Source: Escherichia coli (GTDB lineage Bacteria > Pseudomonadota > Gammaproteobacteria > Enterobacterales > Enterobacteriaceae). From it: a stretch of 64,000 nucleotides of DNA. Both the position numbers and the translations under genes were made by a program. Positions 39,960-40,080 of the stretch are shown piece by piece (position 1 is the first letter of the stretch; each line of letters begins with the position of its first letter). The notes beneath the pieces were generated by a model. It did not search any database. It was not told where the DNA came from and saw only the letters and a list, made by a program, of their open reading frames with translations. Location: assembly GCF_024223415.1 (NCBI RefSeq), contig NZ_CP100501.1; one strand, written 5' to 3'.

Positions 39960-40080
39960 ATGCACAAAAATAACAGGCTATAATGGCATGAAAAACGGGA
40001 CAGGATGTGTAATCGTATAACCGCGCACGCACGGCTATACGATTACCACCTGGTCAGGGCTTAGCCCCGACACCCCGGTA
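39960..40080. other. oriT region with MobP-type nick motif on the minus strand
   Basis: Minus strand reads CACATCCTG|TCCCGTTTTTCATGCC at about 40000/40001; flanked by inverted repeat GTAATCGTATAACCG...CGGCTATACGATTAC (40009..40046); immediately upstream of nikA. Confidence 0.6.

What the first reader, a model, noticed from the sequence alone, without database searches (positions are those of the whole stretch)
39960..40080. oriT with MobP nick motif on the minus strand fixes the direction of transfer
The minus strand carries CACATCCTG|TCCCG, matching the YATCCTG|Y nick core of MobP relaxases, next to a 17-bp-arm inverted repeat and directly upstream of nikA. The inferred nick at about 40000/40001 means the leading region (23.4-40 kb) enters first, and all plus-strand leading genes use the transferred strand as template.
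Basis: partly seen in the sequence, partly recalled or inferred. Interest (0 to 1): 0.35.

Follow-up and report, generated by a model that had tools for sequence, protein, structure and literature searches.

The report
Known R64-type plasmid transfer origin

Summary
The minus strand reads CACATCCTG|TCCCG at 40009-39996. An 18-nt inverted repeat (40009-40026 / 40029-40046) ends 8 nt 5' of the predicted cut, and nikA and nikB follow.

The 8-mer alone is not diagnostic: there are 17 copies in the window against about 8 expected. Only this copy has a long hairpin next to it, and only this one aligns base-for-base with the oriT of R64 and ColIb-P9.

Across 12 distinct oriTs, the nick core and a second 8-bp repeat are fixed. 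The long repeat co-varies, and its arm variant tracks the NikA DNA-binding strand in 5 of 5 classes.

Two independent strand tests agree that the minus strand is transferred. The oriT hairpins fold better on the minus strand, and so do three Frpo-like elements in the leading region. So 40000 downward enters first, and 12 identified leading genes (ssb, psiB, psiA, ardA and others) are templated by the incoming strand.

Corrections:
- The relaxosome is IncK/B/O-type, not IncI1 proper (NikA 67%, NikB 70% identical to R64).
- Three ORFs nearest oriT lie on the other strand.

Already known; low interest. Side note: identity to R64 steps from about 97% to about 70% within 10 bp of the nick.

The parts
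39996..40009 (-). Nick region CACATCCTG|TCCCG. The predicted NikB cut is between 40001 (G) and 40000 (T) on the minus strand, and 40000 becomes the relaxase-bound 5' end.
   Evidence: Direct reading; unique 14-mer; CATCCTGTCC invariant in 12 distinct oriTs; matches the MOBP consensus (C/T)ATCCTG(C/T) (PMC3772185).
40009..40026 (.). Nick-proximal arm of the long inverted repeat. By analogy with R64 'repeat A' it is the NikA-binding arm needed for initiation.
   Evidence: It ends 8 nt from the predicted nick. The arm variant tracks the NikA beta-strand variant in 5 of 5 classes. R64 role as summarised in PMC5863519 and PMC4743918.
40029..40046 (.). Distal arm of the long inverted repeat. With the proximal arm it forms a hairpin in the transferred strand (termination signal in R64).
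   Evidence: 7 of 10 outer pairs carry compensatory double changes, 0 of 500 shuffles as high; both arm mismatches are G.T wobbles on the minus strand.
40053..40071 (.). Second, short inverted repeat (GTCAGGGC tta GCCCCGAC on the + strand): 8-bp arms with a 3-nt loop.
   Evidence: 5 of 8 pairs invariant in all 12 oriTs and 96.9% of cells paired, including a conserved G.T wobble on the nicked strand. PMC3817090 reports that the 8-bp repeats of the related IncZ-type plasmids pO26-CRL125 and pO111-CRL115 are identical to those of R64.
39996..40078 (-). Portable oriT core: nick region plus both repeats. This is the stretch shared with small (1.5-8 kb) plasmids; those inspected have no annotated relaxase.
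   Evidence: Distant blastn matches of small plasmids cover query positions ~52-141, which is window ~39991-40080; sequences.
39866..39995 (.). Leading-side intergenic region, nearly invariant across I-complex plasmids. It is the probable control region for the divergent yggA-like gene and possibly for nikAB.
   Evidence: invariant columns. One weak sigma-70-like site on the minus strand at 39922-39893 (1 found against 0.6 expected, so not significant).
40092..40424 (+). nikA: ribbon-helix-helix relaxosome accessory protein.
   Evidence: Pfam NikA-like 78.3 bits; NCBIfam MobA 111 bits against cutoff 80; matches PDB 2ba3 NikA; 67% identical to R64 NikA.
40436..43138 (+). nikB: MOBP relaxase, 900 aa.
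   Evidence: Pfam Relaxase plus TraI_middle; NCBIfam TraI_MobP_relax 417.5 bits against cutoff 250; 70% identical to R64 NikB along its full length, with Tyr22 and HTDTDNLHVHV conserved.
39524..39865 (-). yggA-like ORF, divergent from nikA and the first gene on the leading side. It lies on the non-templated strand.
   Evidence: 96% identical to the R64 counterpart. PMC6112013 lists YggA of R64 as the homologue (32% identity) of pCTX-M3 Orf35, whose loss raised nikA/nikB transcripts about 40- and 23-fold.
38190..38480 (-). Frpo/ssi-like structured repeat, copy 3, immediately upstream of the DUF4942 gene (38587-39438, +).
   Evidence: Repeat families D4/D5. Minus strand -82.8 kcal/mol (z -6.8) against plus strand -63.4 (z -3.7).
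35165..35710 (-). Frpo/ssi-like structured repeat, copy 2, between ardA and the next plus-strand ORF.
   Evidence: D2-D7. Minus strand -183.7 against plus strand -163.8 kcal/mol.
28820..29370 (-). Frpo/ssi-like structured repeat, copy 1, immediately upstream of ssb (29401-29922, +).
   Evidence: Minus strand -171.5 against plus strand -148.2 kcal/mol. ssb identified.
23628..39438 (+). Block of leading-region genes templated by the transferred strand: DUF1281, DNA methylase, DUF1380, antirestriction, ssb, parB-like, psiB, psiA, ardA, rpn, DUF4942.
   Evidence: Same order and orientation as annotated in ColIb-P9, R64, pIP72, pCT and pEGY2.

Best explanation
Window 39996-40078 is the origin of transfer of an I-complex (IncI1/K/B/O/Z family) conjugative plasmid. 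It is the IncK/B/O sequence variant of the well-studied R64 oriT. NikA (RHH) binds the nick-proximal arm of the long inverted repeat and positions the MOBP relaxase NikB on the adjacent invariant core. NikB Tyr22 cuts the minus strand between G40001 and T40000 and stays covalently bound to the 5' end at 40000. That end is led through the type IVB (Tra/Trb) channel, so the minus strand enters the recipient from 40000 towards lower coordinates. The leading region arrives first, and nikAB and the rest of the plasmid arrive last. The plus-strand leading genes (ssb, psiB, psiA, ardA, methylase and others) can be transcribed from the incoming single strand, probably from the three Frpo-like hairpin elements. 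When the oriT comes round again, the two repeats fold as hairpins in the transferred strand and direct the closing reaction. Shown here: sequence anatomy, positional homology, covariation, strand asymmetry, protein families. Inferred by homology: the exact cut position, protein binding, and the initiation and termination roles.
For: Positional homology: the site aligns with R64 and ColIb-P9, with the nick core identical. The core is identical to pCT (IncK) and pIP72 (IncB). Conservation pattern across 12 distinct oriTs: nick core and 8-bp repeat fixed; long repeat co-varies (7 of 10 pairs with double changes, 0 of 500 shuffles, slid controls 31-46% paired against 93.9%). The NikA beta-strand variant matches the arm variant in 5 of 5 classes. 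Proteins: NikA-like/MobA, PDB 2ba3, and MOBP relaxase above curated cutoffs. Strand identity from three independent lines: the YATCCTG|Y motif is on the minus strand; the oriT folds at -26.2 (minus) against -22.6 (plus), and R64 at -30.5 against -24.3; all three Frpo-like repeats fold 19-23 kcal/mol better as the minus strand, while five coding controls range from -1.6 to +12.6. Uniqueness: this is the only one of 17 motif sites with a long 5' hairpin. Machinery present: trbC, a trbB-position ORF (not matched by NCBIfam), a DotM-like trbA-position ORF and traY. Literature: MOBP consensus (PMC3772185). Inverting a 120-bp oriT in the IncI1 plasmid pESBL abolishes protection that depends on early leading-gene expression (PMC7736820). 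Mutating the R64-homologous nick region ACATCTTGT in IncM pCTX-M3 abolishes self-transfer (PMC7440800). pEC156 derivatives carrying a 93-bp R64-type oriT together with an F-type oriT are mobilised by R64, and a derivative lacking both is not (PMC4743918). The inner arm is needed for initiation and the whole repeat for termination (PMC5863519).
Against: No experiment exists on this exact sequence. The cut position is transferred by homology. The primary R64 nick-mapping papers could not be opened, so 'G|T, 8 bp from the repeat' is from my memory of Furuya & Komano 1991. Symmetric covariation in a repeat could also arise from binding of a dimeric protein to duplex DNA without any hairpin. The energy advantage of the minus strand at oriT itself is modest (3.6 kcal/mol). 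nikB is separated from trbC by about 7.8 kb of toxin-antitoxin and IS sequence, and I did not check that the rest of the transfer region is intact.
Confidence: 0.93

Rival explanations
1. The sequence is a genuine R64-type oriT but is no longer used in cis. The plasmid's own transfer system would be crippled by the IS and toxin-antitoxin insertions between nikB and trbC, so the site works only when a helper plasmid supplies the machinery.
For: About 7.8 kb of mazEF-like TA plus IS3-family and IS256-like fragments lie between nikB (ends 43138) and trbC (ends 53236). Only part of the tra region is inside the window.
Against: nikA, nikB, trbC, a DotM-like ORF at the trbA position and traY are full-length ORFs. 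pEGY2 has a similar insertion after nikB and is still typed conjugative, MPF_I. The oriT core is identical to those of pCT and pIP72, which are also typed conjugative.
Confidence: 0.05
2. The long inverted repeat is mainly a duplex-DNA operator through which NikA autoregulates nikAB and/or yggA. Its symmetry and covariation would then reflect dimer binding rather than a hairpin role in transfer.
For: The repeat lies 45 bp upstream of the nikA start codon in a divergent intergenic region. RHH proteins are commonly autorepressors; NikA also scores weakly against RelB-antitoxin and TraJ-regulator models. Covariation alone cannot separate a hairpin from dimer symmetry.
Against: Both arm mismatches, and one pair of the short repeat, are G.T on the nicked strand and A.C on the other. 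That asymmetry is meaningless for duplex binding. Small plasmids inspected here keep the repeat and nick core without an annotated nikA or nikB, so no such operon is there to regulate. Published R64 work assigns initiation and termination roles (PMC5863519). The two roles are not mutually exclusive.
Confidence: 0.03
3. The nick is elsewhere: at another YATCCTGY site, on the plus strand, or at a shifted position within the core. Direction of transfer would then be opposite or offset.
For: There are 16 other YATCCTGY matches in the window. The cut was not mapped here.
Against: None of the other sites has an adjacent long hairpin or a relaxase gene beside it. The plus strand at oriT carries no such motif. 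The hairpin and Frpo-like strand asymmetries and the orientation of 12 known leading genes all require minus-strand transfer from about 40000 downward.
Confidence: 0.02

Closest known systems
oriT of IncI1 plasmids R64 / ColIb-P9 (NikA-NikB relaxosome; Furuya & Komano)
   Same: Same architecture in the same order and spacing: the nick core ...ACATCCTG|TCCCGTTTTT is identical, a long inverted repeat ends 8 nt from the nick, and an 8-bp repeat follows that is identical except for its loop. The oriT sits directly upstream of nikA-nikB with a divergent yggA-like gene. The leading region has the same gene order and is 93-100% identical in nucleotide sequence.
   Different: The long-repeat arms differ at 6 or more positions, with compensating changes (GTAATCGTATAACCG against GCAATTGTAATACCG), and the loop is 2 nt shorter. 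NikA is 67% identical, with most divergence in the N-terminal DNA-binding half. NikB is 70% and TrbC 76% identical.
oriT of IncK / IncB/O / IncZ I-complex plasmids (pCT, pIP72; p3521-type oriT described in PMC3817090)
   Same: The oriT core is identical base for base to pCT and pIP72. The 581-bp oriT-nikA segment is 98.8-99.5% identical. The NikA N-terminus is identical. PMC3817090 already reported that, in related IncZ-type plasmids whose oriT is identical to that of IncB p3521, the 8-bp repeats match R64 while the 17-bp repeats differ.
   Different: Nothing of substance at oriT. Downstream of nikB the window has a mazEF-like TA and IS elements in place of the immediately adjacent trbC seen in pCT and pIP72. 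A similar insertion is present in pEGY2, which nevertheless carries a different NikA/repeat class.
RP4 / IncP-1 oriT (TraJ-TraI relaxosome, MOBP11)
   Same: Same nick hexamer ATCCTG followed by YCCG (RP4 oligonucleotide CACCTATCCTGCCCGGCTGA in PMC3772185). An inverted repeat lies just 5' of the nick. The accessory protein gene and relaxase gene sit on the repeat side and are transferred last.
   Different: The repeat sequence is unrelated and there is no second 8-bp repeat homologue. NikA scores only 35.7 bits against the TraJ model (cutoff 134). The mating channel is type IVB (DotA/DotM-like TraY and TrbA) rather than VirB-like.
oriT-only small mobilisable plasmids with an R64-type oriT (pEC156, NTP16/pCERC7 group)
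   Same: They share the about 85-bp core: nick region, long repeat and 8-bp repeat, at 77-85% identity.
   Different: Those inspected here have no annotated relaxase gene, and some carry only a nikA homologue (PMC9282650). They depend on an I-complex helper. The window's oriT sits in its native nikAB context.

Membership tests
R64-type (I-complex, NikAB) origin of transfer | Nick core matching 5'-YATCCTG|Y-3' on one strand | tested here: met
   CATCCTG|T at 40007-40000 on the minus strand. The extended core CATCCTGTCC is invariant in 12 oriTs.
R64-type (I-complex, NikAB) origin of transfer | Long (about 17-bp) inverted repeat ending 8 nt 5' of the nick on the nicked strand | tested here: met
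   Arms 40009-40026 / 40029-40046. Positions 40008..40001 make 8 nt. This is the only motif site with such a hairpin. The '8 bp' figure for R64 is from memory, but the same spacing is seen in the R64 sequence itself.
R64-type (I-complex, NikAB) origin of transfer | Second 8-bp inverted repeat distal to the long repeat | tested here: met
   40053-40060 / 40064-40071. Arms identical to R64; 96.9% of cells paired across 12 oriTs. The feature is described in PMC3817090.
R64-type (I-complex, NikAB) origin of transfer | Positional homology with the experimentally defined R64 oriT | tested here: met
   MAFFT alignments A1 and A2.
R64-type (I-complex, NikAB) origin of transfer | Located immediately upstream of a nikA (RHH) - nikB (MOBP relaxase) operon | tested here: met
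R64-type (I-complex, NikAB) origin of transfer | Site- and strand-specific nicking by NikA+NikB, and cis-acting mobilisation | not testable with these tools
   Needs in vitro nicking or a mating assay. Supporting experiments exist only for relatives (PMC4743918, PMC7736820, PMC7440800).
IncI1 sensu stricto (R64 / ColIb-P9) relaxosome specificity class | R64-type repeat arms (GCAATTGTAATACCG) and R64-type NikA DNA-binding strand (RQKTVVRTLRF) | tested here: not met
   The window has GTAATCGTATAACCG and RQKNVLIAVRF. NikA is 67% and NikB 70% identical to R64. Its class equals pCT (IncK) and pIP72 (IncB).
IncI1 sensu stricto (R64 / ColIb-P9) relaxosome specificity class | IncI1 replicon (RepZ / RNAI) | not tested
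   The replicon of the window was not examined. Rfam found no replication-control RNA in the window. The closest relatives are typed IncI1/B/O, IncI-gamma/K1 and IncK2/Z.
MOBP relaxase family (NikB) | N-terminal catalytic Tyr and the HxDxD...HxH metal-binding motif; family HMM above cutoff | tested here: met
   Tyr22 and HTDTDNLHVHV are conserved with R64 NikB. NCBIfam NF041893 417.5 bits against 250; Pfam PF03432 100 bits.
RP4/IncP-type oriT (TraJ/TraI) | TraJ-type accessory protein and IncP repeat sequence | tested here: not met
   NikA scores 35.7 bits against a cutoff of 134 on the TraJ model. Only the nick hexamer and the following CCG are shared with the RP4 oligonucleotide in PMC3772185.
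Frpo/ssi single-strand promoters (for the three leading-region repeats) | Strong secondary structure specific to the transferred strand, located upstream of T-strand-templated leading genes | tested here: met
   The minus strand is favoured by 19-23 kcal/mol in all three copies against -1.6 to +12.6 in controls. Copies 1 and 3 lie directly upstream of ssb and the DUF4942 gene; copy 2 lies between ardA and the next plus-strand ORF.
Frpo/ssi single-strand promoters (for the three leading-region repeats) | Sequence homology to F Frpo or ColIb ssi, and -35/-10 elements in the stem | not tested
   I did not align these repeats to a reference Frpo and could not confidently place -35/-10 hexamers by eye. 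PMC3817090 and PMC11541004 report Frpo homologues at these positions in IncI-family plasmids.

The most novel reading that the evidence does not exclude
The nick site is also an evolutionary module boundary. Nucleotide identity to R64 is 93-100% through the leading region up to 40009, then drops to 55-80% from 40010 through nikA and nikB, and TrbC is only 76% identical at the protein level. This would fit leading regions being exchanged among I-complex plasmids by events that start at nic. One route is NikB-mediated oriT-oriT recombination. Another is recombination of an incoming, partly transferred T-strand, whose 5' end is nic, with a resident relative. The NikA N-terminus plus repeat-arm specificity module swaps independently: pEGY2, the best overall match for the 24-kb query around oriT, carries a different NikA/arm class.
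Probability: 0.35. Interest if true: 0.35.

Novelty: already known. Interest (0 to 1): 0.12.

Why it matters
Locating oriT and the nicked strand orients the whole plasmid map. It shows which genes enter a recipient first and which strand they must be on to act before the complementary strand is made. That is useful for annotation and for interpreting the anti-defence leading region. It adds nothing new, though. The R64 oriT has been dissected since the 1990s, the differences between 17-bp repeat variants and R64 are already published (PMC3817090), and the orientation logic has been tested directly by oriT inversion in an IncI1 plasmid (PMC7736820) and surveyed across thousands of plasmids (PMC11541004). 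The only mildly new angle is how sharply the mosaic boundary coincides with the nick.

Tried and rejected
- Primary literature: the Furuya & Komano papers (1991 nick site, 1997 mutational analysis, 2000 initiation/termination, 2003 recombination) are not held under PubMed or PMC ids. I relied on secondary citations and marked the rest as memory.
- Text search for 'YATCCTG' returned only unrelated primer sequences.
- Using the 8-mer as evidence was rejected. It is over-represented in the window (17 against 7.8 expected) but not specific to oriT.
- Rfam found nothing at or near oriT.
- The promoter/terminator scan of 39780-40180 gave one weak minus-strand site, no more than shuffles give. I make no promoter claim.
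- My first shuffle-based folding script timed out. I replaced it with MFE comparisons against coding controls.
- The inner 8 pairs of the long repeat were left out of the formal covariation count, because loop-length indels misalign them.
- The Cronobacter locus L012 has the repeats and a nikA homologue but no RCAGGATR core within 110 nt upstream of nikA. I left it out of the alignment.
- I tried to place -35/-10 hexamers in the Frpo-like hairpin by eye and could not do so convincingly, so I make no claim.

Full report
**Observation**

The minus strand reads 5'-...CGATTAC ACATCCTG|TCCCGTTTTTC-3'. The string CACATCCTGTCCCG occupies 40009..39996 and is unique in the window. The G|T junction falls between 40001 and 40000.

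The repeat finder reports an inverted repeat with arms 40009-40026 and 40029-40046 (18 nt, 89% complementary, 2-nt spacer). Its nick-proximal end is exactly 8 nt from the junction. nikA begins at 40092 and nikB at 40436.

**Is it more than chance?**

The 8-mer YATCCTGY is not informative on its own. It occurs 17 times in the window against 7.8 +/- 2.7 in shuffles.

Context does discriminate. Of the 17 sites, only 40007(-) has a long hairpin directly 5' of the motif (16 of 18 Watson-Crick pairs). The runner-up is 10 of 12, inside a coding region. The 93-nt region folds with z = -6.4 as the minus strand.

**Identity of the locus**

- The 581 bp around the site match over 2,000 enterobacterial plasmids. 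The best matches (98.8-99.5%) include pIP72 (typed IncI1/B/O) and pCT (typed IncI-gamma/K1). About 1,400 records match at 90-95%.
- NikA hits Pfam NikA-like (78 bits), NCBIfam MobA (111 bits against a cutoff of 80) and the solved NikA N-terminal domain 2ba3.
- NikB hits Pfam Relaxase and TraI_middle, and NCBIfam TraI/MobA(P) relaxase (417 bits against 250). It aligns end to end with R64 NikB at 70% identity, with Tyr22 and HTDTDNLHVHV conserved.
- Gene order on both sides matches R64 and ColIb-P9: DUF4942, a small divergent ORF, nikA, nikB.

**Alignment with the reference oriT**

Aligned with R64, ColIb-P9, pCT and pIP72, the nick core and about 130 bp on its leading side are essentially invariant. 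The long-repeat arms differ between the R64/ColIb-P9 pair and the window/pCT/pIP72 trio. The window's oriT core is identical to pCT and pIP72.

So this is the IncK/B/O-type variant of the R64 oriT, not IncI1 proper. [quoted passage not shown]

**Comparative anatomy**

A distant search found the core in large I-complex plasmids and also in many 1.5-8 kb plasmids. The small plasmids match only window ~39991-40080, which delimits a portable core. The small plasmids I inspected have no annotated relaxase gene.

I aligned 12 distinct variants on the nicked strand:
- CATCCTGTCC and the flanking bases are invariant.
- The long repeat varies but stays complementary. Seven of its 10 outer pairs carry double, compensating changes. 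93.9% of cells pair, against 31-46% when the partner column is slid. None of 500 shuffles reaches the observed covariation.
- The NikA N-terminal beta-strand region falls into five variants that correspond one-to-one with five arm variants. Identical proteins go with identical arms.

This pattern fits a universal relaxase target joined to a co-evolving accessory-protein site.

**Which strand, which direction?**

The motif sits on the minus strand. Two tests that do not use the motif agree.

1. The window's two arm mismatches and one pair of the short repeat are G.T on the minus strand and A.C on the plus strand. The minus strand folds at -26.2 against -22.6 kcal/mol. The R64 values are -30.5 against -24.3.
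2. The leading region contains three direct copies of a GC-rich element: 28820-29370, 35165-35710 and 38190-38480. Copies 1 and 3 lie just upstream of plus-strand genes and copy 2 lies between two. All three fold 19-23 kcal/mol better as the minus strand. Five coding controls differ by -1.6 to +12.6. This is the behaviour expected of Frpo/ssi single-strand promoters, which PMC3817090 and PMC11541004 report at these positions in IncI-family plasmids.

The relaxase remains on the 5' end and that end is transported first (PMC7736820). A minus-strand cut at 40001|40000 therefore sends 40000, 39999... in first.

**Leading-region genes**

Twelve genes identified between 23.6 and 39.4 kb are on the plus strand, so the incoming strand is their template. 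They are DUF1281, DNA methylase, DUF1380, an antirestriction protein, a DUF1380-like ORF (sub-threshold Pfam match), ssb, a parB-like gene, psiB, psiA, ardA, rpn and DUF4942.

Three ORFs closest to oriT are on the minus strand: 39524-39865 (yggA-like), 38044-38241 and 37759-38010 (HTH). They are annotated the same way in relatives.

**Mechanism**

By homology with R64, as summarised in PMC5863519, PMC4743918 and PMC3817090:
1. NikA binds the nick-proximal arm.
2. NikB cuts the adjacent invariant core.
3. Initiation needs the inner arm.
4. Termination needs the full repeats, folded in the single strand.

Experiments on relatives support each step.
- pEC156 derivatives carrying a 93-bp R64-type oriT (alongside an F-type oriT) are mobilised by R64, and a derivative lacking both is not (PMC4743918).
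- Mutating the homologous nick region in IncM pCTX-M3 abolishes self-transfer (PMC7440800).
- Inverting a 120-bp oriT in the IncI1 plasmid pESBL abolishes protection that depends on early leading-gene expression (PMC7736820).

The exact R64 cut (G|T, 8 bp from the repeat) is from my memory of Furuya & Komano 1991. I could not open that paper.

The transfer machinery is present in the window. trbC, a DotM-like ORF at the trbA position and traY are identified; the ORF at the trbB position has no family hit. These genes are separated from nikB by about 7.8 kb of mazEF-like TA and IS sequence. pEGY2 has a similar arrangement and is still typed conjugative.

**Side observation**

Identity to R64 is 93-100% across the leading region up to 40009. 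It drops abruptly to 55-80% from 40010 through nikAB. At the protein level, YggA-like is 96% identical, NikA 67%, NikB 70% and TrbC 76%.

The step lies within 10 bp of the nick. It could be a recombination junction created at nic, either by relaxase-mediated oriT recombination (reported for R64, cited in PMC5714925) or by recombination of an incoming strand whose end is nic. Alternatively, it may simply be the edge of a recently exchanged leading-region block. I did not test this across plasmids.

**Verdict**

This is a known element in a known family, so interest is low.

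Noticed in passing
window 39400-40200 (step at 40009/40010): Nucleotide identity to R64 is 93-100% through the leading region and drops to 55-80% from 40010 onward through nikA and nikB (YggA-like 96%, against NikA 67%, NikB 70%, TrbC 76%). The module boundary lies within 10 bp of the predicted nick, which suggests recombination at or from nic.
   Followed up: partly
window 28820-29370, 35165-35710, 38190-38480: Three direct copies of a GC-rich structured element. Copies 1 and 3 lie directly upstream of plus-strand leading genes (ssb, DUF4942) and copy 2 lies after ardA. All fold 19-23 kcal/mol better as the minus (transferred) strand. They are probably Frpo/ssi single-strand promoters; homology to F Frpo and promoter hexamers were not checked.
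   Followed up: partly
window 27229-27528 and 34160-34459: A 300-nt direct repeat (97% identical) covers the upstream region and 5' end of two different antirestriction genes: the Antirestrict-family ORF 27454-27990 and ardA 34415-34996. This may be a shared leader or control region.
   Followed up: no
window 40092-40250 versus L006, L008, L009 (pEGY2, pSTEC17, EH53): The NikA N-terminal beta-strand variant and the repeat-arm variant co-vary in 5 of 5 classes. pEGY2, the best overall match for the 24-kb query around oriT, carries a different NikA/arm class (RKRIVKFTARF / GGGAATGTCGGACCG) from the window. The specificity module therefore appears to swap independently of its surroundings.
   Followed up: partly
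window 40001-40008 with 40047-40053: In the predicted minus-strand fold the long hairpin is extended by pairing of CCAGG(T)G (between the two repeats) with the nick core CATCCTG. This would place the G|T junction inside a stem. Both segments are invariant in all 12 oriTs, so covariation cannot test it.
   Followed up: no
window 43174-43799: A mazE/pemI-like plus PemK/MazF toxin pair lies directly after nikB, where pCT, pIP72, R64 and ColIb-P9 have trbC. It is followed by IS3-family and IS256-like transposase fragments up to about 50.2 kb. pEGY2 has a similar insertion.
   Followed up: partly
window 6132-6218, 44391-44477, 50042-50158: Three Rfam ALIL pseudoknot hits (IS3-family frameshift signals). 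The copies at 6132 and 44391 have identical scores, so the same IS may be present twice, which could bracket a composite element of about 38 kb that includes oriT and the leading region.
   Followed up: no
window 58936-59092 (+) and 55817-55904 (-): Rfam sok antitoxin RNA (a hok/sok or pnd-type system) and an AgrB-type antisense RNA (dinQ-like type I toxin system) lie near the trb genes.
   Followed up: no
window 2207-5704 (+): An 1165-aa autotransporter adhesin of the AIDA-I/MisL type (beta-barrel domain 320 bits), a likely virulence or colonisation cargo gene. An IS91-family transposase lies at 13610-14902 (-).
   Followed up: no
L012 (Cronobacter plasmid NZ_CP141995) 560-725: This locus has a related oriT with the long and 8-bp repeats and a nikA/traI pair, but no exact RCAGGATR nick core within 110 nt upstream of nikA. 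It may be a divergent nick-core variant.
   Followed up: no
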